A stretch of 64,000 bases of DNA, taken from assembly GCF_009914755.1 (NCBI RefSeq), contig NC_060925.1, one strand, 5' to 3'. Positions within the stretch are counted from its first letter, which is position 1. The number at the start of each line of letters is the position of its first letter. The notes under the pieces are model-generated. The model made no database searches and was not told the DNA's origin. It was given only the letters and a program-made list of their open reading frames with translations. This document shows, in pieces, positions 14,735 to 60,971 of this stretch. This DNA is from the human T2T-CHM13v2.0 reference genome, Homo sapiens. The translations under genes were made by a program, and so were the position numbers.

Positions 14735-14879
14735 ATAACTTTGGAAATTTGTCATTTAAAAATTTCTTTCCTATTCCTTTGTATTACTTCAAATATCCCT
14801 TCTTTGTTCTGCCCGCCCCCGACTCCTCCCCCCACTCCTCCCCCTACTCCCCCACAACCGCACATAGGTGAAGGGATAG

Positions 14880-15551
<672 letters not shown>

Positions 15552-15783
15552 TGAGAATTTGTCAGTGGGGAAGTTTGGAGCAGTGGCTGTGAGTCAAAGA
15601 AAAAACAGGAGACGAGAAAGAAGAAGGGCTCCCAGGACAGAAGGAAAGAAGAGAGGGGACCTCACTGCAAACCCCCTTGTTGGTCAAATGGTGCCTGGTC
15701 CTTGTTACCAGACCCAGATTCAGGCATCCCATTAGTTATGTGGGATGATAACATGACCTCACAGGGCTCATAGGGCTGTGGCT

Positions 15784-15884
15784 TCATTAAATAACACTGA
15801 GAAGTACCCAGAAGAGTGACCCATATTTTTTTTATCATTAAATAACACTGAGAAGTACCCAGAAGAGTGACCCATATTTTTTAT
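15784..15884. repeat. Near-perfect 51-bp tandem duplication (2 copies)
   Basis: tcattaaataacactgagaagtacccagaagagtgacccatatttttt starts at both 15784 and 15835. Confidence 0.95.
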
Positions 15885-16273
15885 TTTTATTTTTATGTTT
15901 TTTGAGACAGGATCTTGCTCTGTGGCCTAGGCTGGAGTGCAGTGGTGATCCTAGCTTCATGGCAGCCTCAACCTCCTGGGCTCAAGTGATCTTCCTACCT
16001 TTGGTCTCCCAAGGTGCTGGAATTATAGGCATGAGCCACCACACCTGGCTGCTACCAATTTTCTTGGTCACTTATGCATTCCCTTCATCGATGCCCCTTC
16101 CTTCCCATGCCTTAGCTTCCTCCTCACTTCTGATTGAGCTCACCCTGGCTCTTCTGAATTCCTTCTGCTCTTGTTACCTCTGTTGTTTTTCCATGTCATT
16201 ATTTGTCATATCCTAAGCACTTCCACCACACGTGACTGCCCTCAGCCCCGAAGGCCACCTTCAGTGAACTTGC

Positions 16274-16390
16274 ATTATCCCCAGTTTACAGAAAGCAAAC
16301 CAAGACGTCGACTTGCCCAAGATCTCCTAGGTGGCAGATGAAAAGCCAGGATTTGAACCCAAGTCTTTTGTATCCACATTCTTTTAACCA
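16274..16390 (-). mobile_element. MIR SINE fragment
   Basis: 'cattatccccagtttacaga...gacttgcccaagatc...gccaggatttgaacccaagtc' is the MIR core in antisense. Confidence 0.7.
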
Positions 16391-17089
16391 TAGGAAGCCT
16401 CCCTTTCATTTTCTCAACAAGCTTTCTTATGCACTTGCTCTGAGCCTGACATAACACTAGGTGCTGGGGGTTCAGGGATGGGTGAGAACAGCTCCCACAC
16501 TCCTACAGCTCGGGTCTGGTGAGCAGAGTGGACACTAAAATAAGTAATCGCCATATCGCCCCATGGTGGAGGGAGCGCCTGTGTTTAAAATCCAAGTGCT
16601 TGGCCTGGGTTTTGAAGGCTGAGAAAGAGTTCACCTGGGAAACCAAGTCAGAGAGGGGCGGGGGTATTGTAACCCGAGAGTGTGGCATGTGCTGATGGGA
16701 AGACACCTGGGGAAGTGGAAGCAATTTGGCGTGGTCAGAGGACCAAGTTCAAGGATGCTGGCACGGAAAGCGGGGGTGTGGCCAGGGCAGGTCAGGCCGT
16801 CACTGGTATCTTCTGTGCCACTAAAGGGTTTCGGATTTTACCCTGTAGGTGACGGCAGCGACTGCAGGGTTTCCACAGGGGAACGACACGGTGCGATTCA
16901 TTCTTTCCACCAGATATGTGTGTCTATAATGAATGAGAGACGCAACAGTGGGCGGTACGGCCAAAGAGCTTACTTACATTCCTGTGGGAAGGCAGACAAG
17001 GAAATGAAGATGGAGATGGGATTACACTTGCCTGTCCTCAGGGATCCAGCCCTCCCACCCCTGAAAGTCTATCCTTAAGAGAGGCTTGT

Positions 17090-17463
<374 letters not shown>

Positions 17464-17556
17464 TTAACAGCAAAATACAGGAAAAAACACAAACGTCCAT
17501 CAGTTGGGGATTGGTTGACTAAACCAGGGCTATTCACACAACAGAGAACTGCATAG

Positions 17557-17694
<138 letters not shown>

Positions 17695-18017
17695 TGAGTA
17701 GCTGGGATTACAGGTGCATGCCACTAACGCCCTGGCTAATTTTTGTAATTTTAGTAGAGATGGGTTTTGCCATGTCGGCCAGGCTGATCTCGAACTCCTG
17801 ACCTCAGATCATCTGCCCGCTTTGGCCTCCCAAAGTGCTGGGATTACAGGCATGAGCCACTGCGCTTGGCCTGTAGGCTATGTTTTTGAGCCTGAAAAAA
17901 GCAATTTTACAGATGGCACAAGAAGAATTAGAAATATGAATATAGTTAAGTATTTGTTTATGTTTTGAAGCACAAACAGGGAAAAAGAAACCAAAAATAA
18001 ATTAAAATGGTTTCCTA

Positions 18018-18453
<436 letters not shown>

Positions 18454-18976
18454 TCAGGCTTTATGTAATTGCAAAGTAAAATTAAGTAAGTAAGGAAAAA
18501 AGCATTCCTGAAACATAAAACGCGAGTTACGTTTCAACATAAAAATATAGCAGAACAATTGAACAATTATACATAGGGCCGGTGGCATGAACACTGAAGG
18601 ATTTTTTCATGTTATTTTAGACACAGTATTTTTCATCTACATACCTGCTGCAGTATATCCTAAGGACAAGAAGAAGTACCAAGGAATCTTAAACAGTACT
18701 TAGGAATCCTCTTAAAAATTATATTGGTATTGTTATTTTGAAATTGTGTGTGTGTGCAATTACTATCCTCTACTACTATATGTGCACAAATAATTATGTT
18801 AATGTCCTCACTAACAAGATTTTCAGCATAAAAAACAGAGATCCAAATTGAAAAATTAGGCTGGGCTTCATGGCTGACACCTTTAATCACAGCACTTTGG
18901 GAGGCTGAGGTGGGAGGATCACTGGAGCCCAGGAGTTCAAGACCAGCCTAGGTAACACCGCAAGACCTCATCTCTA

Positions 18977-19096
<120 letters not shown>

Positions 19097-19237
19097 TCAC
19101 TGCACTCTAGCCTGGGTGACAAAGCAAGACCCTGTCTCAAAAAAAAAAAAAAAAATTAACAAAGCTAGATAAAAACTCTGTAATCATAAATTTAGAAATA
19201 TCAATATAAATTTATAAATTCTTTTTTTTTTTTTTTT

Positions 19238-19536
19238 AGGGACAGGATCTTGTTATGTTGCCCAGGCTGGAGTGCAGTGGCTATTCACAGGCATGATCCC
19301 ATTACCGATCAGCACAGGAGTTTTGACCTGATCCATTTCTGACCTGGGCTGATTCACCCCTCCTTAGGCAACCTGGTTGTCCCCTGCTCCAGGGAGGTCA
19401 CCATACTGATGTCAGACTTAGTGTGGACACCTGATTGGCACAGTGCACTGCAGCCCAGAACTCCTAGGCTTAAGCTATCCTCCTGCCTCAGCCTTCCAGC
19501 TACCTGGGACTACAGGCACGCACCACTGCACTTGGC
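19238..19536 (-). pseudogene. RN7SL451P: Full-length 7SL (SRP) RNA processed pseudogene
   Basis: Reverse complement aligns end to end with 7SL RNA, including the S domain that Alus lack (…GGTGACCTCCC…CCAGGTTGCCTAAGGAGGGGTGAA…GGTCAAAACTCC…); poly(A) tail 19222-19237; TSD ATAAATTCTTTTT at 19214 and 19538. Symbol is from memory of the locus and not verified. Confidence 0.92.
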
Positions 19537-20547
19537 AATAAATTCTTTTTCTCTTTCTAAAAACATGTATTTCCTAGGTCTGTTCACTGAAACGTCTTAC
19601 CAACAAAAACAACCTACAAGCAATTAACACCTTATAACCAGATAATGGCTCCCCTTTTTTTTTTTTGAGATGGACTTTTGCTCTGTTGCCCAGGCTGGAG
19701 TGCAGTGGCACGATCTCAGCTCACTGCAATCTCCACCTCTTGGGTTCAAGTGATTTCTCCTGCCTCACCCTTCCAAGTAGCTGGGGTCACAGGCGCGCGC
19801 CACCACACCCGGCTAATTTTTGTATTTTTAGTATAGACGGGGTTTCACCATGTTGGTAAGGCTGGTCTTGAACTCCTGACCTCAAATCATCCACCTGCCT
19901 CGGCCTCCCAAAGTGCTGGGATTGCAGGCGTAAGCCACTGTGCCCGGCCCAGATAGTGGCTTCTAAATATCATTTTTCACTATGAGGAATCAGGGAACCT
20001 TGGAGAAATGACTGATTCCAGATGCGGAACAAGAATATAGAAGATGGGCTGGGCACAGTGGCTCACTCCTGTAATCCCAGCACTTTGGGAGGCAGGGTTG
20101 GGAGGATCATTTAAGGCCAGGAGTTTGAGATCAGCCTGTGCAACAGAGCAAGACTCCTGTCTATTAAAAAAAAAAAAAGAATATTTAAGAAGAACCTGGG
20201 ATATCTTTTTAGGCCAGAAAACAAGAAATTTAACTAAGTACTGGATTTATGTCAAAAAGACACTGGGGCCATCTTGAAGGGGCTCCTGGGTCAACTTAAG
20301 CATTCAAAAGAACAATATCATAAAAAGAATCATAACTGCAATGGATTGAAAATTGAAACACTGAATATATAGAAATATATGAGTTCATTATGGTCCTAAA
20401 AATAAGTGAAAGAAAACGCACTGGTCTTCTTTGGAGGTTGCTAGGGAAACCATTTATTTTTCTGTAAATTGGCAAATAGAAAGAAAGGGTCAAATATATG
20501 TCCCGCCTTCCCTGTGCACACTGCAGCTGAGAGATCCTATGGTTGGT

Positions 20548-21520
20548 TGCATCAGTTTCCTGAGGCTGCTGTAATAAATAACCACAAACGACATGGTTTA
20601 AAATATCAGAAATTTATTTTCTCACAGTTCTGGACACCAGAAATTTGAGATCAGGGTGTTGGCAGGACCAAGCTGCCCTCAAAGATGCTGGGGGGCTTCT
20701 TCCTTGCCTCTTCCAGCTTCCAGCGGTCACGGGCATTCCTTGGCTTGTGGCTGCATCACTCCGTCTCTGCTTCCATCCTCACATGGTCTTCCCTTTTTCT
20801 CTGTGTCTTTGTCCGTCTGCTTTTCTCTTATAAGGTCATTTGTCATTGGACTTAAGGTCCATTTGAATAATCCAGAACTTCATCTCAAAATTCTTTACTT
20901 GATTATATCTGCAAAGATCCTTTTCTTTTCTTTCTTTTTTCCTTCCTTCCTTCCTCCTTTGCCCTTCCCTTTCTGTCCCTCCCTCCCTTCTTTCTTCCTT
21001 TCCTTTCCTCTCCTTTCCCTTTCTTTCTCCTTCTTTCTTCCTTCTCTTCCCTTCCCTTCCCTTCCCTTTCCCCTTCCCCTTCCCCTTCTCCTTCCTTCCT
21101 TCCTTCCCTCCCTCCTTCCTCCTGCTTTCTCAGTTCGTTTTCTTTCTTTCAAGATGGGGTCTCCCTCTGTTGCCCAGGCTGGAGTACAGTGACACAAGCG
21201 TAGCTCACTGCATCCTCAACCTCTCAACCTCCCAGGCTCAAGTGATCCTCCCGAATCAGCCTCCCAAATGGCTGGGACTACAGGCACGCTCAACCACACC
21301 CAGCTAATTAAAACAATTTTTTTTATAGTGACAGAGTTTCACCTTATTGCCCAGGCTGGTCTGGAACTCCTGAGCTCAAGCAATTTGCCCTCCTTGGCCT
21401 CCCAAGAGCTGGGAGTACAGGCATGAGCCACCCCCCCCAGCCCCCTTTTTCCAAATAAGGTCACATTCACAGGTTCTGGGGGGACATTCTTTTGGGGTGG
21501 CCACTGTTCTACCCTATAGA
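20548..21520 (-). mobile_element. MLT1C-like MaLR LTR interrupted by an AluJ with a long pyrimidine-rich tail (~20920-21442)
   Basis: 'tcagtttcctgaggctgctgtaataaataaccacaaac…aaatttattttctcacagttctgga…' and resumption 'ttttccaaataaggtcacattcacaggttctggg'. Confidence 0.75.
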
Positions 21521-21959
21521 GTTGGTGAGAATGAGTTCTTCTTGGAGGAATTACAGTTAGTATATTCAGAAGGAGTCATTTTGCAGCCTCAATGAAATGA
21601 TGGACCCCGGTAATGATCATGATTGGTTTCCAACACCATTAGATGGGAGATTGATGGGATCTTTACACTATATTGCATTCTATTCTATTCTATCCTATCC
21701 TATTCTGTGGATCAGGCCGACAACCTTTGGAAACACTGAGCAGTGTTAACATCACTGAACACGAAATAAGAGTACACACTGTGCTTCTGGAAACTCAGGC
21801 CACAGAAGAATGTGTAATTCGCCATGAAGAAGTAAGCCCCATGAGGAAGATGGGATTTTTGTTTTCTTTTTCACGACAAACTCCAACCACCTGAAAAGAC
21901 TATCTGGTATGTAAGATGCTCAGTGAAAATGTACTGAATGAATGAATTAGCATTCATAT

Positions 21960-22480
21960 AAAGAAATGCTAAAAATCAATAAGAAAACAACTAACAACCC
22001 AACAGAAAAATCATAAGGAGGGGGGAACTGACAATTTACAGGAGGAGAAATAGGAATGATCAATAGTAATTAAGGCAATGAAAATGAAAACCGCAATGAG
22101 ATATCAATTCACAGCCTCGGATTGGCAAAAACTTTAAGGTCTGATGCTACCAAGTGCAACTGAGGATGTGAAGCAATCTTCATCCAGGGCTGGGAGCGTG
22201 AACAGGTGCAACCGCTCTAAAAGCAGTTTGGTAAGACCTCATAAAGTCGAACAGGGGCATCTCCTAGGACCCAGAAATTCCACTTCTAGGTATTTACTTT
22301 ACAGAGACTTGCATGAATGCATAAGAAACAAACATGCTCATCGCAGCATTACTTATAATGGAAAAATATAGGAAACAACCTAAAAGTTTGTCAATAGGTG
22401 AATGTAAAATAATGATGTTTTAGAGATCATATCATGCAGTGGTAAAGACAAATGAACTAGAAAATGAAAATTAGAAATAT
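21960..22480 (+). mobile_element. L1ME-like 3' fragment
   Basis: 'aaatcaataagaaaacaactaacaacccaacagaaaaat…aaaaccgcaatgagatatcaattcaca…gacccagaaattccacttctaggtattt' typical of the L1 ORF2 end/3'UTR. Confidence 0.7.
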
Positions 22481-22625
22481 GAGCATGAGGCTGGGCACGG
22501 TGGTTCACGCCTGTAATCCCAGCACCAAAGTGGGAGGCCGAGGCGGGTGGATCATGAGGTCAAGAGATCGAGACCATCCTGGCCAACATGGTGATACCCC
22601 GTCTCTACTAAAAATACAAAAATTA

Positions 22626-22964
<339 letters not shown>

Positions 22965-23236
22965 CTAGGCATGGTGGAGTACGCCTGTAGTCCCAGCTAC
23001 TCAGGAGGCTGAGGTGGGAGGACAGCTTGAGCTGGGAGGCAGAGGTTGCTGTGAGCCAAAATCGCACCACACTGCACTCCAACCTCGGCAATAAAGCCAG
23101 ACCTTGCCTCAGAAAACAAAATGACAAAACAAAAAACAAAAAAAGTTACAAACATGTTGAGCAACAAAAGCAAGTCCAGGAAAAAATAGCGTAGTATTTA
23201 TAAAAAGTTGAATAACAAAATAATGATGTACATACA

Positions 23237-23590
23237 CAGTTAGGTGCCAAATCACAATGTTTTAGTCAGTGATGGGTAGTGTAGTCGACGGTGGGCCCAG
23301 AAGATGGTGACACTGTATTTTCACTGTGCCTTTTCCATGTTTAGATACGTTTAGATACAGTAATACTTAGCATTGTGTTACAGCTGCTTACAGCCTTCAG
23401 TAGAGTAACATGCTGTGAAGCTTTGTAACCCAGGAGCAGTTACACTGCTCCACAGTGTGGCCACACCACAGAGCCTAGTGTGGGTAGGCTATGCCATGTG
23501 GGTCTGTGCAAGTACACCCTACGGTGTTCACACAATGACTCATGACACGTTTCTTGGCACATATCCCTATTGTTTACTGACACATGACTG
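23237..23590 (+). mobile_element. Tigger3a-like non-autonomous DNA transposon (TcMar-Tigger)
   Basis: Starts CAGT…, ends …CATGACTG followed by TA; internal 'tgtattttcactgtgccttttccatgtttagatacgtttagatac' matches the Tigger3a consensus as I recall it. Confidence 0.75.
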
Positions 23591-23664
23591 TATAATGTCA
23601 AGGAGACACAACACATAGTAAAGGTAATTAATAAGAAAAACACCGAGCAGGGGCAAGTGGCTCA

Positions 23665-24147
<483 letters not shown>

Positions 24148-24388
24148 TTAAGTGTAGTGGTGATATCAATTATGAGGAGGGATGGAAGAGAACTCAGTCT
24201 TTAACGACTTACTGCAGAAGGTGGGTGGTGATACATGGGTATTTATTACTCTTTATTACCTTTATTACTATTTATCCCTTTAAAATAAAAATCTGATTAC
24301 ATCATTTTCCTACTTCAAAACTTCCGGTGTTTCTCATGACACTTTTTTAAAAAATTAATCTTTTATTCAATGTTATAGGTAGTATTAA

Positions 24389-24734
<346 letters not shown>

Positions 24735-26099
24735 TAGCTGTGGTCTGCCTCCCTGGCCCTGGCCGCTTTCTGGGCATCATCTGTCTCTGCCCTCCCTTTT
24801 CTCACCGAGCTCTGGTTGCAGCGTTCCTCAGAGACACCAAATGTGTTCCGGCCACAGGGCCTTTGCACATGCCGTTCTCTGCACTGAACATGGGGCATGG
24901 ATCTCTCCTCCTCCTTGTTGTGCTTCTTTACTCACCTCACAAAGGCCACCAGGCCATCTTCTGTTTTACCCCAGGGATGACAATGAGCTTGAGAGGATGG
25001 CTTCTTTGCCCTTGTGCCCTGAGCTGTGAGCCCAGAGCTCAGCCAACTGCTCCCACTGTGCTCCTATTCAGGGAGGGCTCGCCTATGGAAGCGGCTGCAC
25101 AGTGGCTCTAGAAAGAATATGTCCTGTAGGAGGGAAGGGCTGCCCTCTGGGTGGAATCATGGTGGTCTCCAGAAATCTCCTCCACTGGATTCCTGGGCTG
25201 GAGGAGCCACGTGCTCCCTGCAGCCACCTAGGGCCACCGGGAGATTCTGGTCTGAGGCAGGAGTGCAGCTGCAAATGCAGAAAGCAAGGCTGGGGTGTCT
25301 GGGATGAAGCAGGCCGGAACTGGGCTCAGCACCGAGCTAGCTCTTGGGATGTTTTATTTACCAGGGTCATTCACATTTATGTTGTCCTTCAAAAGATCCT
25401 GAAAGTTCTTGGGCATGGTGGCTCATGCCTGTAATCCTAGCACTTTAGGAGGCCATGACAGGAGGACTGCTTGAGCCCAGGAGTTCAAGACCACCTTGGG
25501 CAACATAACAAGACCTTGTCTTTACAATAATGAACATAAAAATAAATTTAAATAAACATTCCTGAAAATTCCCATGGATCTCAGCCTGTCTTGAGTCTCT
25601 CAGCAACACCATGAGCGGGGAACTCTGATTGCCAAGGTACAGGTAGAGAAACTGGGGCCCAGCTTTCATTAGCAACAGAGCCAGGATTTGAACTCAGGTC
25701 TCAGACTCTAAGCCAGTCATCTTTCCATCATTCTATGACTCTTCCCTTTGCGATGAAGGAGGGGGACCCAGGCAATACTCCCATATGACTAATGGATCCA
25801 GAAAAATCATTACTTTCAGAACCTACAAAAAAACTTTGAGGACAAAAAGCGTGGGTTTCTGAAGCACCTTCAGCCCTGAGCAATCCCAGCACTTTGGGAG
25901 CAGTGAGCAAGCTGTCATTTTCCCTGCGCTTCTCGCAGACCTGGAAGCACAATTGTTCCAACAGTGACAGTTTACAGGGTGTTCATTGGCACTCACTGTG
26001 GTTCTCACGGAGGAATGGCAGGCTTGGCGCTCAGCCTGGGAGAGTCTGCTTTCTGGAAAGGCAAATAGGAGCCAGGAAGCTGCTGGTTGGACTGAATCA

Positions 26100-26977
<878 letters not shown>

Positions 26978-27063
26978 TAAAAACTAAAACTAAGGAGCTG
27001 GGCATGGTGGCTCACCCCTGTAACCACAGCACTTTGGGAGGCTGAGGTGGGCGGATAACGTTA

Positions 27064-27373
<310 letters not shown>

Positions 27374-27878
27374 CTAACATTCACTTTATAAACTACATTG
27401 TTGAGGCCAATTTTGTTTTCTACAAACCTCCTAGAAGCTGGAGAGCACGCGTGGGCCCCCAGCCACAACGGGGCATCCTCTCCCAGGGACAGCAGAAAGA
27501 ATCGTGTTCTTTAAACAGCCACAAAACCACGTTGTCAGTGGGAAGGAAGTCACTGAGCAACTGCTCCCGAGGGGCAGAAGCTGGGAAGACCCTAGTGGGG
27601 CCTGGGATCTTGATGTTCTAATATTGGTTCCTGTAAATTCATGTTGCTCAGTACAAGTTTTGAGAAACAAAACATCCTTCCTTAGACACAGCCCGTTAGC
27701 TGTTACATGGTGCTGGCCGTGGGTGTTCCTCTCACCAGTGCCAGAAATTCTCTGAAAGACCTTCTGTGTTGGTGTCATTTTGTAAACAAAAACAAAAAAA
27801 CCCCCAAAACCTAAAGCAAGGAAGGTTCTTGAACAGATTGGAGGGGTCAAGCAGAACCAGCAGCCCCGACAGAGGAGG

Positions 27879-27896
27879 TGCTGCCCTCCAGTGGCG
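27879..27896 (-). promoter_or_regulatory. Candidate CTCF motif (reverse)
   Basis: Minus strand CGCCACTGGAGGGCAGCA, one mismatch from the canonical CCACTAGAGGGCAGCA. Confidence 0.5.
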
Positions 27897-29722
27897 TCTG
27901 TGAGGACAGCAGGGGCTGTGCCCAGGAGACCTCAGAAATCATCCAGTCCACCCCCTCCCATTTTTAATATTGGTAAACTGAGGTACAGAAGATCTATAGA
28001 GGTCTCCAGGTAAGTTAATAGCATATCAAGGACAAAGGGCAGATTGCGTGTCCCTGCACTGTTCCAGTGGGATGTGGGGGGCTCTGGACATGGGGATGTT
28101 GGTCCCTGTTTCCTCTATGCACTGCTTAAGGAATTTCCAAGCACCCTCACACCTGAATAATGGGGGTCCCCCACCCCACCCACAGCTGAAGGGACGGTGG
28201 GCCAGCAGTCACTCAGGTGCCCCCTCTCAGGCCTCAGTAAGTGATATCTGAATGCCAAGGCCGTGCAGAGGGGACCACGATTGGCACCTGGTCACCCTAA
28301 AACTCACACAAGTGTATGCTGGGGAGCAGGTGCTAAGCCCTTCGCAGGAAAGCCGCTGTCCAGGGAGAAGGATGCAGGGCTGGAGAGAAGCAGAGGAGGA
28401 CCTCTGGGCTTCCGAGGGGGGTCAGCGTGGCGGGGGTGGTGAACGATGACCTGCTGACAACCGCCGGACCGGGCTGTACTTCCTGCCCTTGACTTACACA
28501 GAAATTCCCTGCAGGCCTCGGTTGCATTTCTGCTCTTCACAAATACACCGTTCCCAACTAAGACAGCACGCCTTTGATTTTGTTGGAGCCTCAGGGACAG
28601 GCTTTGCTATCTCCACGTCCTGACAATGACGCTGGGACAAGACAGTATACCCTGACACAGCCTCTCAGTGGGATGCTGGGACCCAGCTCCAATTCCTGTG
28701 CTCTCATCGAGCCCTTGGACCCCTGGAGCTGGCCTATGGGACACGTCAGCAAGAGGTGGAGGGCGGGGTGCATTTTCCAGGTGGCTCCAAGCAGTCTCAG
28801 CTCCACCAAGGCAGGACCCAGGGCTGAGTTTGAGGGTGTCAGGACCCCAGCATCTTCCAAACATGGGGCGAATGCCCCCACAGTCTCTGTGTCAGAGCTT
28901 CCCACCCTACCCTGACAGCATAATGAGCTCCTGTGGGTGGAGGCTGACAGAGGCCCCGGACGCACCGGGCTCAGGGGTGCTGCTCATGCATTGACCTCTC
29001 TTTGAGAGGGGCCCTGAGAGACGCCTGCTTGTGTACGTCTTAGAGGCAAAGATCCAGATGGTCGGGCACGGTGGCTCACACCTGTAATCCTTGGGAGGCC
29101 AAGGCAGGTGGATCGCCTGAGCTCAGGAGTTTGAGACCAGCCTGGCCAACATGGTGAAACCCTGTCTCTACTAAAATACAAAAATTAGCTGGGCGTGGTG
29201 GCAGGTGCCTATAATCCCAGCTACTCAGGAGGCCGAGGCAGGAGAATCACTTTCACCTTGGAGGCTGAGGTTGCAGTAAGCTATCACACCACTACACTCC
29301 AGCCTGGGTGACAGAACAAGACTCTGTCTCCAAAAAACAGGAAAAATCCTTTTTGGCTTATAAGCTTCTCTTTGAAAATAAAAACACTACAGGGAAAGTT
29401 AATTGATGAAGCATTATCACTTAATTAAATCAGTGTGAATTAAACAACAGATAGCAAGTAGTTTCATTGTGATGCCTTTCTTTTGGGTTTCAGATGGTGG
29501 ATTTGATAAGGAGGAAAGGAGTATTAGAGGCAGCTGACTGAGGGAGGCCTGAGGCTGTTGGTTGAGTCACTGTTTCATCTGGGGTAGGCCGGGACTTCCA
29601 TGTGAAACTAAGTGTTTGCAGAGCCCAGTGGGCTGTGTGGCTGCATCTGAGAACTGCTGGGAGCTGTGGATTTGCTGGGGAATCAGCCCAGCTGTCCCCG
29701 GGAGGTTGGTGGGGGCGGAGGA

Positions 29723-29980
29723 GGGACACAGAGGAGTGTCCCTCCATGTAGGCAATGACATGGGATGTCAAGGTCAGCCAGCTCAGGGACTGTGTGCTCC
29801 CTGGGGAGAGGAAGGGCTGGCTCTGGGACCTCTGGGCTCCCTGGGGAGAGGCAGGACTGGCTCTGCGACCTCTGGGAGCCTGAGTGCAATGGTCAACGTG
29901 TGGGCCCCCCATCACAGGAAGAGGGAGCCATACTGGGGATTTCTAAGTACCAGCAAGGGTCTCCAGGGCTCTGTAGGCAA
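29723..29980 (-). pseudogene. Unprocessed SLC2A7-like pseudogene fragment: degenerate exon 10 (29723-29796) plus ~180 bp of homologous intron 9
   Basis: Aligns to SLC2A7 46972-47194; exon part 54/74 identical with a 2-nt deletion; translates [11 protein letters not shown]/fs/[12 protein letters not shown] versus [26 protein letters not shown]; acceptor AG kept, donor GT lost. Confidence 0.85.
29796..29876. repeat. 40-bp tandem duplication (2 copies, 3 mismatches)
   Basis: gctccctggggagagg(a/c)agg(g/a)ctggctctg(g/c)gacctctgg repeated at 29796 and 29836. Confidence 0.9.
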
Positions 29981-32674
29981 TTTTTTTTTTTCTTTTTTTT
30001 TTGAGACAGAGTTTGGCTCTGTCACCCAGGCTGGGGTACAATGGCACGATCTTGGCTCATTGCAACCTCCGCCTCCCAGGCTCAATCACTTCAGCCTCCA
30101 GAGTAGCCGGGACTACAGGCACAGCCCAGGCACCATGCCCAGCTAATTTTTGTATTTTTTGTAGAGACAGGGTTTCACCATGTTACCCAGGCTGGTCTCG
30201 AACTCCTGACCTCAAGTTGATCCTCCTGCCTCAGCCTCCCAAAGTGTTGGGATGACAGGCGTAAGCCACGATGCCCAGCCTGTAGGCACTATTAATAAAA
30301 TAAAAATAGAATGTAAAACCTCAAATCATGGATATAAAAATTAAGCAAAGTTAATCAATATAGCAAAAGAAAAGAAAAATTCAAAAATAGCAAGAACATA
30401 TAAGAAACAAAGCATACAATAAGATGCAGAAGAACAAACATCAATTGTAAGACATAAGAATGGATTAAACTCTGCTATTCAAGGGCAAATATTCTCAGAT
30501 GGGATCAAAGAATAAAAAACTAAGACATAGCTAAAACATAAGACAAGCTGGGTGTGGTGGCTCATGCCTGTAATCCCAGCACTTTAGGAGGCTGAGGCAG
30601 GAGGATCTGTTGAGGCCAGTAGTTTAAGACCAGCCTGGGCAACATAGTGAGACCCTGTCTCTACAAAAAATGGTAGTGTGTGCCTGTAATCCCAGCTACT
30701 CAGGAGGCTGAGGCAGGAGGATGGCTTGAGCATAGGAGTTGGAGGCTGCAGTGAGTCATGACTGCACCACTCCACTCCAGCCTGGGTGGCAGAGTGAGAC
30801 CCAGTCTCCAAAACAACTACTACAACAATACAAAGCAAAAATAAAAAAGATAAGACAACAGAGAGGTTAATGCAAATGCAACTGTCGCCCAGGCTAGAGT
30901 GCAGTGGCACGATCTCAGCTCACTGCAACCTCCACCTCCTGGGTTCAACCAATTCTCCTGCTCAGCCTCCCGAGTAGCTGGAACTACAGGTGCACGCTAC
31001 CATGTCTGGCTAATTTTTGTATTTTTAGTAGAGAAGGGGTTTCACCATGTTGGCCATGCTGGCCTTGAACTCCTGACCTCAAGTGATCCACTCGCTTCGG
31101 CCTCCCAAGGTGCTGGGATTACAGGCGTGAGCCCCTGTGTCCAGCCAACATAAACATTAATGCAGAACCCAAGGCTAAGAGCATTAAAGACAGGTTGAAA
31201 GAGCAGAAGTAGCACCTTTGGGATGTGGAGATTTGATCAAATTGGCATTTCAATGGCGCTGAGGATGCCAAGAACACCCAAATCCTAACCTGGGACACCC
31301 TTTTCTCCCAGATCTCTGTGAGACACAGCGGCTGCTCTTCGTCCTCCCCAGTTCTCAGTCCATGTGTTTTGAGTGGGATGTGTCAGCGTGCTACAACCTG
31401 TTGGCTACAAGGATTGTTTTCCGGGATAGATGTGATCAAGGAGCCCAATCAGGTCCCACCCCAGAATGTGGGGGGACTCAACCACAACATGTACAAAACT
31501 AAATGCCTGGTTTCCCCAAAAAGCCTGGTACTTTCCTTGTGACCCCAGATTCAGTAAGTGTTACCACCACCCATCCGATGAAGGATGTAAAAACCAGCAA
31601 ACATTTGTAACCTCTCCCTCCCCATCACCCACTCTCCAGTCCATTATTGAGCCCCATTGATCTCACTTCCTAAACGTCTCTCAATTGTAGTCTCAACAAT
31701 CTCTAGTGACCTCCATTTTTCCACTATCCCTCTGTAGTCAAGCCACCAGTATCTCTTCCCTGGTCTATGGAAGTGGCCTGCTAACTCGTCTCCTTACTTC
31801 CACACTTGCTTCTCTCTACATTTGTCTATTCCAGCCCATTATCCAAGCTGGGGTCACAGCCATTTTTTTTTTTTTGAGGCAGGTCTTGCCCTGTTGCCCA
31901 GGCTAATGTGCAGTGGCATGAACTGCACTCAACCTCCTGGGCTCAGACAATCCTCCCACTTTAGCCTCCTGGGTAGCTGGGACTACAGGCACATGCCACC
32001 ACACCCAACTAATTTTAATATATTTTTTTGTAGAGATGGGGGTCTTGCTATGTTGCCCAGGCTAGTCTCAAACTCCTGGGCTCAAGCAATCCTCCTGCCT
32101 TGGCCTCTGAAAGTGCAGGGATTATAGGCATGAGTCACAGCACCTGGCCTGCTCTTTCTTTCTTTCTTTTTCTTTCTTTCTTTCTTCCTTTTCTCTTTCT
32201 TTCTTTCTTTTTTGTGCTCATTAACCATCCCCACCTTCCTGCTGCTTTGTTCTCTAATGAACTATTTTATTCAAGACCTTTGTTTTCAGAGACAGAAAAT
32301 CCAGAACACACAAGTTTTAGCAACACAGGGAACCCATTGTTTCACCTACCAGAAGAATCCAGGGGAGGCCTGGCTTCCAGTATAGCCGGAGCCCAGGATC
32401 CAGAGTGTGGCATCAGAAGTGTGGTCATCCTGTCTCGGCTTTGCACATCCTGTCTGTGGGCCTTGCCCTCAGGTGACCAATCCCCTGAGTGGGTCTCAGA
32501 AGCTCCAGGATTCCAGCCTTGCAGCCCAGCCACCCAGGAGGACTGGCATAGAGATGCCCTCCCTGAAGTGGGACCCTGAAGAGAGTACCGTGGGTAAAAG
32601 ATTAGGAAAGAAGCCCACCTAATAAAGGGAGATGGCAAGGAAACCTGACATCAGGTTGCAGATCTGGGTAAAGG

Positions 32675-33013
32675 ATGCTGCTGATAAAGACATACCTGAG
32701 ACTGGGCAATTTACAAAAGAAAGAGGTTTAATTTGACTCACAGTTCCATGTGGCTGGGGAAGCCCCACAATCATGGCGGAAGGCAAGGAGGAGCAAGGCA
32801 CGTCTTACACGGATGTCAGCAGGCAAAGAGAGAGAGCTTGTGCAGAGGAACTCCTCTTTTGAAAACCATCAGGTCTCATGAGACGTATTCACTATTATGA
32901 GACTAGCTTAGGAAAGACCTGCCTCCATGATTCAATTACCTCCACCAGGTCCCTCCCACAACGTGTGGGAATTCAAGATGAGATGTGGGTGGGGACACAG
33001 CCTAAACATATCA
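32675..33013 (-). mobile_element. THE1B/C-type MaLR LTR (slightly truncated)
   Basis: Reverse complement begins TGATATGTTTAGGCTGTGTCCCCACCCACATCTCATCTTGAATTCCCAC; contains 'ctgataaagacatacctgagactggg'. Confidence 0.88.
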
Positions 33014-33592
33014 GGGGAGAAAGGTAGCCTTTGAGCATTTGTAAGCACCAGCTTGTCCTTCCCTGGCTTTAGGGTTTGAATCCACATGGCTGCAATTTAA
33101 AAAGGGCATAAAAACAAACAAACAAACCCTAAACTAAAACCTCAGTGGCACCTCCTGGTGTCTGACAGAAGCAATCACAGAAACATTTCGGGCCACTGTA
33201 GATATTTGAATATGGTGGGGCTATTAGATGATATTAAGGAATTATTTTAAATTTTGGTATGTGAAATAAAAGTATTCTATAAAAACATGACTTTATTTAT
33301 TTATTTAGATACAGAGTCTCGCTCTGTCGCTCAGGCTGGAATGCAGTGGCACGATCTTGGCTCACTCTAACCTCCGCCTCCCAGGTTCAAGCGATTCGCC
33401 TGCCTCAGCCTCCTGAGTAGCTGGGACTACAGGTGTGCGTCACCATGCCCGGCTACTTTTTTTTTATTTTATTAGAGACAGGGTTTCACCATGTTGGCCA
33501 GGATGGTCTCAATCTTCTGATCTTGTGATCCACCTGCCTTGGCCTCCCAAAGTACTGGGATTACAGGCATGAGCCACAGCGCCTGGCCACCC

Positions 33593-35730
<2,138 letters not shown>

Positions 35731-35734
35731 AGAA

Positions 35735-39050
<3,316 letters not shown>

Positions 39051-44413: not shown

Positions 44414-44541
44414 CTGGATGGATGGGAACAGGAAGCCTATGATGAAGTTGGTGAGCCAGTGCACTGCCCCGTCCACCATGAAAGCTGCCCGCCGGGAGGA
44501 CTGCAGGAAGATCTCGGTCCTCACCACCGAGGGGACAGGAC
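44414..44541 (-). CDS. SLC2A7: GLUT7 exon 11 (128 bp): (S)[42 protein letters not shown]
   Basis: Acceptor ccctccag|, donor |gtgagt; E-x-F…R-x-A-A and HWLTNF motifs. Confidence 0.97.
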
Positions 44542-46971
44542 CTGGAGGGCAGAGCAGGATGGGTGGGGCGGAGAAGGACCCAGGTGTCCCCCAGGGCTGG
44601 CGGGACGCGGCCCACTCTAGCCTCTGACCTAGGACCCTCAAGAGTACCAGCTGGGATTGGGGACTGGAAAGGAACCCTGCCTTTACCCACAAAACCAGGG
44701 CGTGATCAGAGCAGGAGCTGCAAAGATCCACTTTGCAAAGTCTGGTTGGAGAGCCTGGAATTGAATTTCCATTGCTGCTTCTTCAAGGCCAATGACGCTC
44801 CATGAAGGTTTGCAGAAAGTAAATGGATGGGAAGCTTCGTGGGAGCAGCAGGAGTGAGTGGGCTCCAGCTCACAGGCAGCAGAGCTTTCTGAAAGAGCTT
44901 CCTTTGCGCTGGCGTCACTCTGACTTGAGACCGCCCGCGCTTGGGAAGTGCCGCCCTCCTATGGCGGATCTGGGTATGGCAGGGCCTGAGGGCTACACCT
45001 TCTTGGACAACTGTTTTTCATTATCGCTTCCTTAAGAAGCCTTGTCTAAAATGTCTAAAGCCATTTTTGTTCCCTAATCGCCACTCCCATGAAATTTTAA
45101 TACTGTGCGTCTGTTTAGGTCCTGCATATATAGATATCTGTAGCTTTACACAAAGAAAGAGGAAGATTCTGTCCCTCCTCCTCCAAGCTTCCCACCCCCG
45201 CTTAGGTGGTGAAATGGCCTCATTGAAAAGGTCCGGTCTCACAGATCACTGGAGGTCAGGAGTTCGAGACCGGCCTGGCCAACATGATGAAACCCCATCT
45301 CTACTAAAAATATAAAAATTAGTCCGGCATGGTGGCGTGTGCCTGTAGTCCCAGCTACTCAGGAGGCTGAAGCAGGATAATCTGTTGAACTCGGGAGATG
45401 GAGGTTGCGCTCCAGCCTGGGCAACAGAGTGAGACTCCAACTCAAAAAAAAAAAAAAAAAAAGAAGGAAAAAAAGAAAAGGACCGATCTCCCTCTCTGGA
45501 TGGACATGGAGAAGAATTCAAAGCCCCTGAATGAAGCTGGGATGTCAAGTGCAAACTCCTGCAGCCCAGTGACTTGGGGCCCGGGCCCCTTCTCCAGGGC
45601 CCTGACCCCAAAGTGGACGCCGGCAGGGATGTCATCTGTCCTGCCTTCCTCCTGTCCACCACAACAACAGCAGCCAATAGTCCTTAGGTCTAAGTTGAAT
45701 GTCAGATCAGCCCATGCTCTGACCTCGCGTCTGCCGGCACACCTGATCACCCCGTTCTTGGAGAAGCACCATGGCTTGCTCCAGGTGACACACAGGCAGT
45801 GGGGGCAGAACGGCTTGGAACCCGGCCAGGTCTACACACACTGGCACTTTTCCTTTGAGGTTCTGCTGCCTCCACGTTTGAGGTACACTGGGAAGGCGTC
45901 CTGCTCTAAATCCCCACCCGCTCCCCTTTATTTTTTAGACAGAGTCTTGCTCTCTTGCCCAGCCTGGAGTGCAGTGGTGGATCTTGGCTTACTGCAACCT
46001 CTGGGTTCAAGTGATTATCCTGCCTCAGCCTCCCGAGTAGCTGGGACTACAGGCGCCCGCCAACACACCTGGCTAATTTTTGCATTTTTAGTAGAAACGG
46101 AGTTTCACCTTGTTGGCTAGGCTGGTCTCGAACTTCTGACCTTAAGTGAACAGCCTGCCTCCCTCCACCTCTCAAAATGTTGGGATTACAGGCATGAGCC
46201 ACCATGCCAGGCCTAAATCCCACTTCTTAAATACCCTTAAATACAAGTATGTGGTCTCATTCATGTGCCTGACACAGCACAGTGTAAACAGGTATTCCGC
46301 CAATGGATGTTGAATGAATTAAATACCTTCATTTTGGTTTATGGACAGTGCTTTCAAAATGAACATTCTTCAGGGAATGTTATTAGAGTCTTCACAGTCA
46401 GGGGTGTCTTTTCCCAGGCAGGGAGAAGGAGGTTCAATTCTCAGGACACACTAGGGAAGGAGTCTGGAGTCTCAGAGGCTGCCCAACAGGTGGGCCCAGG
46501 TGGAGGCCCGAAGCCACTGGCAACAGGACATTGGGGACAGTGTAATAAGGGACTGTAGCTGGCAGTCAGCGGGGATAGAAGGCAGTTGAGCCTTGGGTGT
46601 GCTGTGGGCTTGGAGGCTCAAGTGAGTGTCTGGAGGGTGTGGATGTAAACCAAGGTGCCCCAGGGGTGTCTGACTGGCATAAGCTCCCTCTCTGCAAAAG
46701 CTCATGTCCTTGTTGGGTGCCAGACCTGAGTCTGGGCCCCCCTGGGAGCCACAGATGATCAGTGGGGCGCTGGCCTGGCTGGCGCTGGTTGAATGAATGC
46801 ACATGGCCTGGAGTGCCATCAAGGCTGAGAACTAAGAACGTGTGGGATCTGCGTGAGCACGGGGACCAAGGACGTCCATTCACTCAGCAAATATGTGTCG
46901 AGCACTGACTGTGTGTCAGGCCCAGGAATGGACCAGGATGGCCGGGGCGAGGGAGGCGTGCAGGTACTCAC

Positions 46972-47047
46972 TGGGCCCAATGGAATGTCCCGCGATGTAG
47001 GCAAAGACACAGATGATGCCGAGGTAGGACAGCTCGGGGACCCTGTT
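46972..47047 (-). CDS. SLC2A7: GLUT7 exon 10 (76 bp): [25 protein letters not shown](S)
   Basis: Acceptor ctctccccacag|, donor |gtgagt; TM10. Confidence 0.97.
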
Positions 47048-48185
47048 CTGTGGGGAGAGGCAGGGCTGTCTGGGCTGAGGCCAGGAGCCCCACGTGCGGG
47101 GGGGTCCACCTGCGGGTCCCACCTTCCTGCCCCAGGGAGGAGCTGCACCTAGATGTCTGGGCACCTCCATGGACCTTGAGGGCTCTGTGGGCAAGAGAGG
47201 AAGGCCAGTGAGAACCAGGCCTTGTAGCCTCCCACAGGGCTCCCTCCAGCCTCACCTGATGAGCGTCATGGAGAATGAGGGGCATCTACCTTTGAGTTAT
47301 TTTCCTGCCAGGTGCCATTCTCTGCACTTTACAAATCACAAATATTAACTCATCTGATCTTTGTGATACTCCTCTGCCCTCTGAGTGACTCTACGATTCT
47401 TTCTTTTTTTTTTTTTTGAGACAGAGTCTCGCTCTGTCGCCCAGGCTGAAGTGCAGTGGCACAGTCTTGGCTCACTGCAGCCTCCGCCTCCCGGGTTCAA
47501 GATTCCCCTGCCTCCGCCTCCTGTAGCTGGGACTAGAGGCGTGCGCCACCACGCCCGGCTTATATGATTGTTTCAGTTCCACAATTGTGGAAGCAGAGCA
47601 CAGAGGGCCCTGAATACAGACCATGAGGAACCTTAGTCCCTCAGGGATCAAGCAGTGGCTGAAGTCACCCAGTCAACATGAGTGAGCTGAGGTCCGGACT
47701 TTCTCTACCATTCTCTGGAGACTCCTAGGACCCCCGGACCCGTGGAGCTGGCAGACCACCATCTCTGCTCCCAACTGCCGAGAGAACAGCCAATGCAAAA
47801 CCGGGTCAACGGACTTCAGCCAAACTAACCGGGTGCCCCCAGATGAACTTCCCAGGGAACCCTGTAGTCACAGTTATGAGACGGCCTCAAGGGACAAGTT
47901 GGCAGCAGAGCTGGATGGCGAGGTGGGAGGGGAGGCACTGGGAGCTTCCAAGCAGAGAAGCAACAAGATCTGATTCATTTTCAACAAGAAGAGAAGGCAG
48001 GAGGATTGGGGCCATTCAACACTTCAAGCAAAAGCGAGGCTGGCTGGGTTGGTGGGGCCGCCCTGGACCCGGTGTGAAGCGAGCAGCTGCTGCTGCATTT
48101 TCAGGCAGAGCCCCTGGTTGGACAGAAGGAGTGAAAGAGCCACCGGGGATGCCCCTAGGTTTCAGAAGTGTCACTGGCGGTGGTC

Positions 48186-60334: not shown

Positions 60335-60971
60335 CTTTTTTTTTTTTTTTTGAGATGGAGTCTTGCTCTGTCGCCCAGGCTAGAGTGCAATGGTGGGATC
60401 TCGGCTCACTGAAACCTCCGTGATATGGTTTGGCTGTGTCCTCACCCAAATCTCATCTTAAATTCCCACATGTGTGGGAGGGACCTGGTGGCAGGTCTTC
60501 CCAGTGCTGTTCTCGTGATAGTGAATAAGTCTCACCAGGTCTGATGGTTTTATAAGGAAGAGTATTTCCGCACAAGCTCTCTCTTTGCCTGCTGCCATTC
60601 ATGGAAGATGTAACTTGCCCCTCCTTTGCCTTCCGCCATGATTGTGAGGCTTTCCCAGCCACGTGGAACTGTGAGTCCATTAAACCTCTTTCTTTTGTAA
60701 ATTGCCTAGTCTCGGGTATGTCTTTATCAGCAGCGTGAAAATGGACTAATACACTCCGCCTCCCGGGTTCAAGCAATTCTCTTGCCTCAGCTTCCCAAGT
60801 AGCTGGGATTACAGGCATGCGCCACCATGCCCAGCTAATTTTTGTATTTTTAGTAGAGATGGAGTTTCACCATGTTGGCCTGGCTGGTCTCGAACTCTTA
60901 GCCTGAAGTGATTGGCTCACCTCAGCCTCCCAAAGTGCTGGGATTACTGGCGCGAGCCCCCGTGCCCAGCC
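60335..60971 (-). mobile_element. AluSz-like SINE split by a nested THE1 LTR
   Basis: Alu text stops at …gaaacctccg (60420) and resumes ctccgcctcccgggttcaag (60754). Confidence 0.9.
60421..60753 (+). mobile_element. THE1B/C-type MaLR solo LTR with 5-bp TSD CTCCG, inside an Alu
   Basis: TGATATGGTTTGGCTGTGTCC … GTGAAAATGGACTAATACA; CTCCG at 60416-60420 and 60754-60758. Confidence 0.93.

What the first reader, a model, noticed from the sequence alone, without database searches (positions are those of the whole stretch)
29723..29980. Fossil exon of a second SLC2A7-like (GLUT7) gene copy downstream of SLC2A7
Seen: 29723-29796 aligns to SLC2A7 exon 10 (46972-47047) on the same strand at 54/74 identities with a 2-nt frameshifting deletion. 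It reads [20 protein letters not shown] against [22 protein letters not shown], and both halves appear in the ORF track in different frames. The acceptor AG survives and the donor is destroyed. Homology runs on for ~180 bp into intron 9 (gatttctaagtaccagcaagggtctccagggctctgtaggcaa versus gatgtctgggcacctccatggaccttgagggctctgtgggcaa), so this is a genomic duplicate, not a retrocopy. Knowledge: SLC2A7 and SLC2A5 are tandem paralogues, and VPEL and AY..GHS are GLUT7-like rather than GLUT5-like. Inference: the cluster once held a third class II GLUT gene between SLC2A7 and CA6. With the intron-3 copy at 33.6-34.8 kb (same order and strand) it suggests a whole-gene duplicate that lost exons 4-9. I do not recall an annotated pseudogene here.
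Basis: partly seen in the sequence, partly recalled or inferred. Interest (0 to 1): 0.8.

Follow-up and report, generated by a model that had tools for sequence, protein, structure and literature searches.

The report
Decayed extra copy of SLC2A7 exon 10
Between the human CA6 and SLC2A7 genes lies a broken, very old leftover copy of one SLC2A7 exon with some flanking intron, an ordinary kind of genomic fossil that seems to be unannotated and marks an extra duplication step when this sugar-transporter gene pair arose in early mammals.

Summary
Window 29723-29796 matches SLC2A7 exon 10 (46972-47047) on the same strand at 54 of 74 bases, with a 2-nt deletion. The local alignment scores 46, and 0 of 500 dinucleotide shuffles reach it (max 27). 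Homology runs into intron 9 (43-nt block, 2 of 1000 shuffles). Two collinear intron-10 patches, 29351-29406 and 27874-27918, extend it further (0 of 300 each; reciprocal best hits in 134 kb). It is therefore an unprocessed genomic duplicate of at least 2.1 kb, neither a retrocopy nor an interspersed repeat.

It belongs to the SLC2A5/7 clade (95%) and is probably sister to SLC2A7 (70%). It shows no sign of past selection.

The whole-gene reading is not supported. No other SLC2A7 exon leaves a remnant in 14.8-42.6 kb. The intron-3 copy at 33.6-34.8 kb is only 3.9% diverged, against 27-36% for the fossil, so it is a separate, much younger local duplication.

No SLC2A7 pseudogene was found in print. 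This is a modest, ordinary relic that fits the published early-mammal rearrangement of this locus.

The parts
29723..29796 (-). Fossil of SLC2A7 exon 10. It has a 2-nt frameshifting deletion, keeps the acceptor AG and has lost the donor GT.
   Evidence: 54/74 identities to 46972-47047. Alignment score 46, with 0/500 shuffles reaching it. Splice sites read.
29797..29980 (-). Flank homologous to the 3' end of SLC2A7 intron 9. It includes a fossil-specific 40-nt tandem repeat (29781-29876) and a 43-nt conserved block (29937-29979). An Alu insertion cuts it off at 29981.
   Evidence: HSP 29808-29980 <-> 47021-47194 at 63.7% over 179 columns, E 6e-7. The block scores 19, reached by 2/1000 shuffles, and is the reciprocal best hit in 134 kb on both strands. 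TRF period 40, 2.4 copies.
29351..29406 (-). Patch homologous to SLC2A7 intron 10 (46332-46387), collinear with the fossil exon.
   Evidence: Score 22, with 0/300 shuffles reaching it (max 19). Reciprocal best non-self hit in 134 kb on both strands. Single copy in the genome search.
27874..27918 (-). Patch homologous to SLC2A7 intron 10 (44944-44988), collinear. It marks the left-most detectable end of the old duplicate.
   Evidence: Score 21, 33/45 identities, with 0/300 shuffles reaching it (max 17). Reciprocal best non-self hit. Single copy in the genome search.
29059..29346 (.). Alu-type repeat inserted inside the old duplicate, between the two intron-10 patches.
   Evidence: It matches dozens of other places in the window at 70-83%. 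Named Alu from recall of the consensus, not by a repeat library.
29981..30293 (.). Alu-type repeat, poly-T end first, that bounds the detectable homology on the intron-9 side. It is flanked by tgtaggca on both sides.
   Evidence: Many window matches. Flanking direct repeat read. No homology beyond it: 30294-30526 scores 9 against a shuffle mean of 11.
44944..47194 (-). Parent segment in SLC2A7: the distal part of intron 10, exon 10 (46972-47047) and the last ~147 nt of intron 9.
   Evidence: Chain of four collinear blocks at offsets 17070, 16981, 17249 and 17213.
33593..34821 (.). A separate, young local duplicate of SLC2A7 intron 3 (parent 61656-62548). A later Alu splits it at 34418-34731. 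It contains no exon and is not part of the fossil.
   Evidence: 95% over 829 columns plus 90% over 90 columns. 32 mismatches in 819 aligned bases. Only these two copies in the genome search.

Best explanation
The stretch is a dead, unprocessed pseudogene fragment. A local segmental duplication copied a piece of the SLC2A7 lineage into the CA6-SLC2A7 intergenic space in the same orientation. The piece covered at least the distal part of intron 10, exon 10 and the last ~150 nt of intron 9, which is at least 2.25 kb of the parent.

This happened after SLC2A7 had separated from SLC2A5, or in the same burst of rearrangement in early mammals. The copy has decayed neutrally since then. It carries a 2-nt frameshift, has lost its donor site, has an internal 40-nt tandem repeat, and was later split by two Alu insertions. 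Nothing suggests it has a function today.

The 95%-identical copy of intron 3 at 33.6-34.8 kb is an unrelated, far younger duplication of primate age.

Shown: the homology, its extent, its orientation, the lesions, the closer affinity to SLC2A7 than to SLC2A5, and the difference in age between the two copies. Inferred: the mechanism, the absolute age (roughly 100-170 Myr, from substitution rates recalled rather than computed here), and the absence of function.
For: 1. Exon homology is far beyond chance: score 46 with 0/500 shuffles reaching it, z 16.8, and E 1.2e-11 in the window self search.
2. Intron homology appears on both sides in a collinear chain of four blocks. Each weak block finds its partner as the best non-self hit in 134 kb on both strands. 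A retrocopy would lack this.
3. It is not an interspersed repeat. The fossil, its left flank, patch L2 and the parent each gave 1 candidate (self) in the whole-genome search. The same tool found 8565 and 71 candidates for true repeats. The exon also encodes a helix shared by SLC2A5, 11, 1, 3/14 and 4.
4. Affinity: identity is 73.0% to SLC2A7 and 58.1% to SLC2A5. Shared derived sites are A7+F 4, A7+A5 1 and F+A5 1, using four outgroup paralogues. The ML tree gives ((A7,F)70,A5)95. Neither SLC2A7 nor the fossil shows intron homology to SLC2A5 (4 of 4 comparisons at shuffle level).
5. Neutral decay: differences from SLC2A7 fall 8/6/6 over codon positions 1/2/3, and the fossil's branch is 0.34 substitutions per site against 0.002 for SLC2A7.
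6. Separate ages: the intron-3 copy is 3.9% diverged, against about 36% for the fossil's intron flank.
7. Context from print (passages only): non-mammals have CA6, one SLC2A5/7 gene and GPR157, while therians have CA6-SLC2A7-SLC2A5-GPR157. The duplication is placed near the origin of mammals (PMC5723433; PMC8042760).
Against: The sister relation to SLC2A7 rests on 74 sites and has only 70% bootstrap support. With three ingroup sequences, SLC2A7 simply has a very short branch, so a near-simultaneous three-way split fits almost as well.

SLC2A5 introns 9 and 10 are only about 0.3 kb each. Their lack of homology may therefore reflect deletion rather than greater age.

The right-hand end of the homology coincides with an Alu insertion, so the true breakpoint is unknown.

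The exon 11 remnant would be expected near 27.35-27.47 kb, at the edge of a repeat, and was not found. The copy either never held that exon or lost it.

The genome DNA search did not recover the fossil-parent pair itself. Its 'single copy' answer therefore excludes abundant repeats, as, and does not rule out another rare diverged copy like the fossil-parent pair.

No other vertebrate genome could be searched, so the age is not anchored by phylogeny.
Confidence: 0.72

Rival explanations
1. This is the reader's model: a complete third class II GLUT gene, a full duplicate of SLC2A7, once stood between CA6 and SLC2A7. It may have been functional. It was later whittled down by deletions until only exon 10 and scraps of intron remain.
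For: The fossil has the same orientation as SLC2A7 and lies on its 3' side, as a tandem copy would. Homology extends at least 2.1 kb over exon and introns. The locus is known for gene duplication in early mammals. A marginal exon-9-like reading frame lies at 27851-27910 (AVL..G..HLL..G...C; tblastn E 2.3; DNA score reached by 1/100 and 6/100 shuffles).
Against: No exon other than exon 10 is clearly detectable, although nine others were tested with the SLC2A7 and the SLC2A5 versions and by tblastn. Exons 11 and 12 should be as visible as exon 10. Only 12.6 kb separates the fossil from the SLC2A7 3' end, whereas exons 9 to 1 of SLC2A7 span more than 19 kb. Codon-position differences of 8/6/6 show no period of selection. 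The exon-9-like stretch is on the wrong side of exon 10 and overlaps a patch that matches intron 10 better.
Confidence: 0.17
2. The fossil and the intron-3 copy at 33.6-34.8 kb are parts of one duplication, with the high identity of the intron-3 copy maintained by gene conversion.
For: The two have the same strand and the same order as in SLC2A7.
Against: Divergence is 3.9% against about 27-36%. The offsets to the parent differ by 10.8 kb (17,249 against 28,063). The young copy ends 27 nt before exon 3 and sits between Alu elements. Conversion limited to 0.9 kb of intron and maintained for over 100 Myr is an ad hoc assumption.
Confidence: 0.03
3. The similarity is due to chance, to GC-rich composition or to a shared interspersed repeat.
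For: The region is GC-rich and holds a local tandem repeat. The individual intron patches are short, with scores of 19-22.
Against: 0/500 dinucleotide-preserving shuffles reach the exon score. Four blocks are collinear and are reciprocal best hits. The matched parent is a coding exon conserved in paralogues. No genomic copies were found.
Confidence: 0.01

Closest known systems
Unprocessed (duplicated) pseudogene fragments left by segmental duplication
   Same: A copy of an exon together with its flanking intron. It has the same orientation as the parent and lies next to it. It carries disabling lesions (frameshift, lost donor) and shows neutral decay.
   Different: Only one exon survives. It is far older (about 27-36% diverged) than typical annotated human duplicated pseudogenes, and it is not in the RefSeq table given for this window.
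SLC2A7 itself, a tandem duplicate of SLC2A5 (therian mammals; PMC5723433 and PMC8042760, passages seen)
   Same: The same locus, the same orientation and the same kind of event (local duplication of a class II GLUT gene next to CA6). The age is probably similar.
   Different: SLC2A7 stayed intact and expressed. The fossil is a broken fragment, and it derives from the SLC2A7 side rather than from SLC2A5.
Described SLC2A pseudogenes SLC2A3P1, P2, P4 and SLC2AXP1 (listed in PMC12347752, passage seen)
   Same: Non-functional relatives of GLUT genes in the human genome.
   Different: According to that review, the three SLC2A3P copies are retroposed (processed) copies on other chromosomes. This one keeps intron sequence and lies beside its parent. 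None of the four is at 1p36.
SLC2A3/SLC2A14 segmental duplication on chromosome 12
   Same: A local duplication of a GLUT gene. Both copies were seen.
   Different: That pair is recent, and both copies have open frames. Here one copy is an old wreck.

Membership tests
Unprocessed (duplicated) pseudogene | Significant sequence homology to an exon of a functional parent gene | tested here: met
   54/74 identities. Score 46 with 0/500 shuffles reaching it.
Unprocessed (duplicated) pseudogene | Keeps the parent's intron sequence and exon-intron junction context, with no poly-A-tailed intronless structure | tested here: met
   The intron-9 flank and two intron-10 patches are collinear and are reciprocal best hits. 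The acceptor AG is in place.
Unprocessed (duplicated) pseudogene | Disabling lesions | tested here: met
   A 2-nt deletion shifts the frame. The donor GT is replaced by TC. No neighbouring exons are present.
Unprocessed (duplicated) pseudogene | Not transcribed or spliced into a functional product | not testable with these tools
   No expression data are held. It lies outside every RefSeq transcript in the table supplied.
Class II GLUT, SLC2A5/SLC2A7 clade | Groups with SLC2A5 and SLC2A7 to the exclusion of SLC2A11 and the class I paralogues | tested here: met
   ML tree of the 76-nt exon-10 equivalent from 8 sequences: (A7,F,A5) 95%.
SLC2A7 lineage (as opposed to SLC2A5) | Shares derived states and intron sequence with SLC2A7 but not with SLC2A5 | tested here: met
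   Shared derived sites are 4 with A7, against 1 with A5 and 1 for A7+A5. (A7,F) has 70% support. Intron homology is with SLC2A7 only. Support is modest, because only 74 sites are available.
Complete (whole-gene) duplicate of SLC2A7 | Remnants of several exons in gene order | tested here: not met
   Of the 10 SLC2A7 exons in the window, only exon 10 gives a score clearly above its shuffle null. The unmasked scans gave 32 for SLC2A7 exon 10, 18 or less for the other nine SLC2A7 exons and 17 or less for nine of ten SLC2A5 exons. SLC2A5 exon 9 scored 21 at 27834-27877, which 1/100 shuffles reach, and the site lies on the wrong side of exon 10.
Processed pseudogene / retrocopy | Intronless, poly-A tail, target-site duplications | tested here: not met
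   Intron homology flanks the exon on both sides. The adjacent poly-T run belongs to an Alu.

The most novel reading that the evidence does not exclude
The fossil is a physical footprint of a second duplication step in the stem-mammal rearrangement of the CA6-SLC2A5 boundary. That is the episode which, according to PMC5723433, created SLC2A7 and removed the pentraxin exon of CA6. On this reading the locus briefly held three SLC2A5/7-type copies, and an intact or multi-exon third GLUT7-like gene may still exist between CA6 and SLC2A7 in some mammalian lineage, such as marsupials, monotremes or basal eutherians.
Probability: 0.2. Interest if true: 0.5.

Novelty: new member of a known kind. Interest (0 to 1): 0.27.

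Why it matters
On its own it is a small, inert relic of a kind found throughout vertebrate genomes. It has three modest uses.

First, it adds an apparently unannotated SLC2A7-derived pseudogene fragment to the GLUT family inventory.

Second, it shows that the CA6-SLC2A7 interval underwent at least two further local duplications after SLC2A7 arose: this old one, and a young 0.9-kb copy of intron 3.

Third, it gives a datable marker for the early-mammal rearrangement that produced SLC2A7 and has been proposed to have cost CA6 its pentraxin domain. Checking for the fossil in marsupial, monotreme and eutherian genomes would order those events.

Tried and rejected
1. Other exon relics. Each SLC2A7 exon 3-12 (+-30 nt) was searched against the repeat-masked 14.8-42.6 kb interval. 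Only exon 10 exceeded its shuffles; the others scored 12-18 against shuffle maxima of 16-20. The unmasked scan with the SLC2A7 and SLC2A5 exons gave the same answer. In tblastn with the spliced exon 3-12 protein, every hit at E<1 lay in SLC2A7 or SLC2A5. The best hit in the interval had E 0.59 and was unrelated in position. tblastn misses the fossil itself, because the frameshift leaves two halves of 11-13 residues.

2. An exon-9-like stretch at 27851-27910. It is marginal (E 2.3; 1/100 and 6/100 shuffles), lies on the wrong side of exon 10, and its parent patch shows only a 16-nt match to exon 9. I treat it as coincidence.

3. Tandem-duplication test. I looked for direct-orientation homology between 10.0-27.9 kb and 30.3-44.9 kb. 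There were only three weak hits and no chain. The one strong hit, 22059-22404 against 36441-36078 (inverted), is an old interspersed repeat.

4. The 32677-33016 against 60734-60418 match (80%, inverted) looked at first like part of the intron-3 copy. It is a high-copy repeat with 8565 candidates.

5. Homology beyond the right-hand Alu (30294-30526, 31152-31862), and in 28000-29047: none.

6. SLC2A5 introns 9 and 10 against SLC2A7 and against the fossil: none.

7. The RefSeq alternative exon 47109-47184 has the same 76-nt length as exon 10. It is not related to it (score 7).

8. A relic of the lost CA6 pentraxin exon. A PF00354 search of the whole genome listed 35 matches, none in the window.

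9. SLC2A9 exon 10 as a further outgroup: not found within 40 kb upstream of its exon 11. Class I paralogues were used instead.

Full report
**What is there.** According to the annotation supplied, the window is human chr1 (T2T) 8,494,001-8,558,000. CA6 ends at 14762 on the plus strand. SLC2A7 occupies 42635 onward on the minus strand.

I read 29400-30300 and 46650-47550 and ran word-7 BLASTN of the interval against the SLC2A7 gene body, and then of the whole window against itself. Among 10,591 self hits, almost all of them Alu-type, only six pairs were low-copy.
- 29724-29827 <-> 46973-47074, 74.5% over 106 columns, E 1.2e-11.
- 29808-29980 <-> 47021-47194, 63.7% over 179 columns, E 6e-7.

**Is it more than chance?** A Smith-Waterman alignment gives score 46. 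None of 500 dinucleotide-preserving shuffles of 29600-29985, searched against all ten in-window SLC2A7 exons +-150 nt on both strands, reaches it (mean 16.0, max 27, z 16.8).

The minus strand reads [11 protein letters not shown], then the frameshift, then [13 protein letters not shown], against [25 protein letters not shown]. The acceptor AG is kept and the donor GT is now TC.

**Extent: a genomic copy, not a retrocopy.** Four pieces of evidence bear on this.
- On the intron-9 side, the first ~27 nt are inside the main alignment.
- A 40-nt unit is tandemly repeated 2.4 times at 29781-29876 in the fossil only. Removing one unit brings the block spacing to about 98 nt, against 104 nt in the parent.
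Each exceeds all 300 shuffles.

All four blocks lie in order, at offsets of 17,070, 16,981, 17,249 and 17,213. I scanned each weak patch against 134 kb, made of the window plus 70 kb to its right, on both strands. In every case the best non-self hit was its partner, in both directions.

The old duplicate therefore spans at least 27874-29980 in the copy and 44944-47194 in the parent. Alu-type insertions at 29059-29346 and 29981-30293 interrupt or bound it. Beyond the right-hand Alu nothing aligns.

**Not a repeat.** Whole-genome searches with the fossil, its left flank, patch L2 and the parent segment each returned only the query itself. The same tool returned 8565 and 71 candidates for two real interspersed repeats in the window.

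There is a caveat. That search also failed to recover the fossil-parent pair, so it excludes abundant repeats but not another rare, diverged copy. Independently, the matched parent is a coding exon whose peptide is recognisable in SLC2A5, SLC2A11, SLC2A1, SLC2A3/14 and SLC2A4. Copying therefore went from gene to fossil.

**Which gene does it come from?** I fetched the SLC2A5 region and located its exons by tblastn. Exon 10 lies at extended coordinates 78082-78157.

| Pair | Identities |
|---|---|
| Fossil - SLC2A7 | 54/74 (73.0%) |
| Fossil - SLC2A5 | 43/74 (58.1%) |
| SLC2A7 - SLC2A5 | 53/76 (69.7%) |

I used SLC2A11, SLC2A1, SLC2A4 and an SLC2A3/14 copy as outgroups and counted a site only where 3 of the 4 agreed. 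Shared derived states were 4 for SLC2A7+fossil, 1 for SLC2A7+SLC2A5 and 1 for fossil+SLC2A5. At 22 sites the outgroups were ambiguous.

An ML tree of the eight 76-nt sequences gives ((SLC2A7, fossil) 70%, SLC2A5) 95%. Branch lengths are 0.34 for the fossil and 0.002 for SLC2A7. Neither SLC2A7 nor the fossil shows any intron similarity to SLC2A5 (4 of 4 comparisons at shuffle level), although SLC2A5's introns 9 and 10 are only ~0.3 kb.

The evidence that it split off after the SLC2A5/SLC2A7 separation is moderate, not strong.

**Decay.** Differences from SLC2A7 fall 8, 6 and 6 on codon positions 1, 2 and 3. There is no trace of a period under purifying selection, though 74 sites give little power.

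**Was it a whole gene?** I tested every other in-window SLC2A7 exon (3-9, 11, 12) with 30-nt flanks against the repeat-masked 14.8-42.6 kb interval. Scores were 12-18, within the shuffle range. Unmasked scans with the SLC2A7 and SLC2A5 versions of all ten exons gave 32 for SLC2A7 exon 10. The other nine SLC2A7 exons scored 18 or less, and nine of the ten SLC2A5 exons scored 17 or less. SLC2A5 exon 9 scored 21 at 27834-27877, a score that 1/100 shuffles reach. tblastn found nothing credible.

A genome-wide search with the exon 11 peptide found nine places. These were SLC2A7, SLC2A5, and seven on chromosomes 4, 12 (two), 1 (42.8 Mb), 17, 22 and 8. There was no extra copy near the window.

A marginal exon-9-like frame at 27851-27910 lies on the wrong side of exon 10 and overlaps the intron-10 patch. 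I regard it as coincidence.

Only 12.6 kb separates the fossil from the SLC2A7 3' end. A complete third gene is thus neither shown nor excluded. A partial copy whose breakpoint lies in intron 9 is the simpler reading.

**The intron-3 copy is a different event.** The segment 33593-34417 <-> 61656-62478 is 95% identical. After an Alu with a target-site duplication (34418-34731) it resumes as 34732-34821 <-> 62462-62548, and it ends 27 nt short of exon 3. It has 32 mismatches in 819 aligned bases, 3.9%.

The genome holds just these two copies. The adjacent 32677-33016 match is a high-copy repeat.

Both comparisons involve intron DNA, yet one is 3.9% diverged and the other about 36%. They cannot be one event unless conversion is specially invoked. 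With substitution rates recalled rather than computed here, the young copy is a few tens of Myr old. The fossil is of the order of 100-170 Myr old.

**Context in print.**
- PMC5723433 (passages) reports that 17 non-mammalian genomes have CA6, one SLC2A5/7 gene and GPR157, while therian mammals have CA6-SLC2A7-SLC2A5-GPR157. It proposes that this duplication removed the pentraxin exon of CA6.
- PMC8042760 (passages) also treats SLC2A7 as a mammal-specific duplicate of SLC2A5.
- PMC12347752 (passage) lists four SLC2A pseudogenes, none at 1p36.
- A full-text search for SLC2A7P, 'SLC2A7 pseudogene', 'GLUT7 pseudogene' and 'SLC2A7-like' found 0 papers.
- The first search gave 28 papers, of which 15 were listed. 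Apart from the three papers above, I saw only the titles and abstract openings of those 15, and none of these showed such a relic. The three whose passages I read do not describe one.
- I looked for a pentraxin relic in the window and found none.
- Supplements were not opened.

**Verdict.** The fossil is an old, unprocessed, apparently unannotated fragment of an SLC2A7 duplicate. The proposed link to the intron-3 copy, and the whole-gene model, are not supported. It is an ordinary kind of object, with some value as a marker for the early-mammal remodelling of the CA6-SLC2A7-SLC2A5 locus. The decisive test could not be run here: whether the fossil is present, and in what state, in other mammals.

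Noticed in passing
window 33593-34821 (parent 61656-62548): A young local duplicate of about 0.9 kb of SLC2A7 intron 3. It has 32 mismatches in 819 bases, and the genome search found only these two copies. An Alu with a target-site duplication splits it in the copy, and it ends 27 nt short of exon 3. It lies between Alu clusters, which suggests a repeat-associated rearrangement.
   Followed up: yes
window 27851-27910, minus strand: An open stretch reading AVLTDATGGQHLLCRGCWFC resembles the start of SLC2A7 exon 9 ([20 protein letters not shown]), beginning at the exon's first codon. It is marginal (tblastn E 2.3; DNA score reached by 1/100 and 6/100 shuffles) and not collinear with the fossil exon 10.
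   Followed up: partly
window 29781-29876: A 40-nt unit is repeated 2.4 times (87% matches) across the fossil's acceptor region. It is absent from the SLC2A7 parent.
   Followed up: yes
window 47109-47184: The RefSeq alternative SLC2A7 exon in intron 9 has exactly the length of exon 10 (76 nt) but no sequence similarity to it (score 7). It has stops in one frame. It overlaps the 43-nt intron block conserved in the fossil.
   Followed up: partly
window 22059-22404 and 36078-36441: An inverted pair at 64% identity over 374 columns. It is an old interspersed repeat, with dozens of 66-88% matches on many chromosomes.
   Followed up: yes
window 32677-33016 and 60418-60734: A ~340-bp high-copy repeat (8565 first-look candidates, many at 87-90% identity) is present once in the intergenic region and once, inverted, in SLC2A7 intron 3. 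The family was not named, because no repeat library is held.
   Followed up: partly
window 44944-44988: The parent of the left-most homologous patch lies inside the RefSeq-annotated enhancer 44472-44998 and silencer 44711-44990. The copy (27874-27918) lies about 200 nt from the annotated enhancer 28119-28619. No test of any regulatory meaning was possible.
   Followed up: no
window 14763-29000: No detectable relic of the pentraxin-domain exon that non-mammalian CA6 carries downstream of its catalytic exons. A PF00354 search of the genome gave 35 matches, none in the window.
   Followed up: partly
G000:C8:87624970-87625080 (L017): A match to the exon 11 peptide on chromosome 8 with an open frame of 179 aa. 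By position it is likely the retroposed SLC2A3P4 named in PMC12347752. It was not examined further.
   Followed up: no
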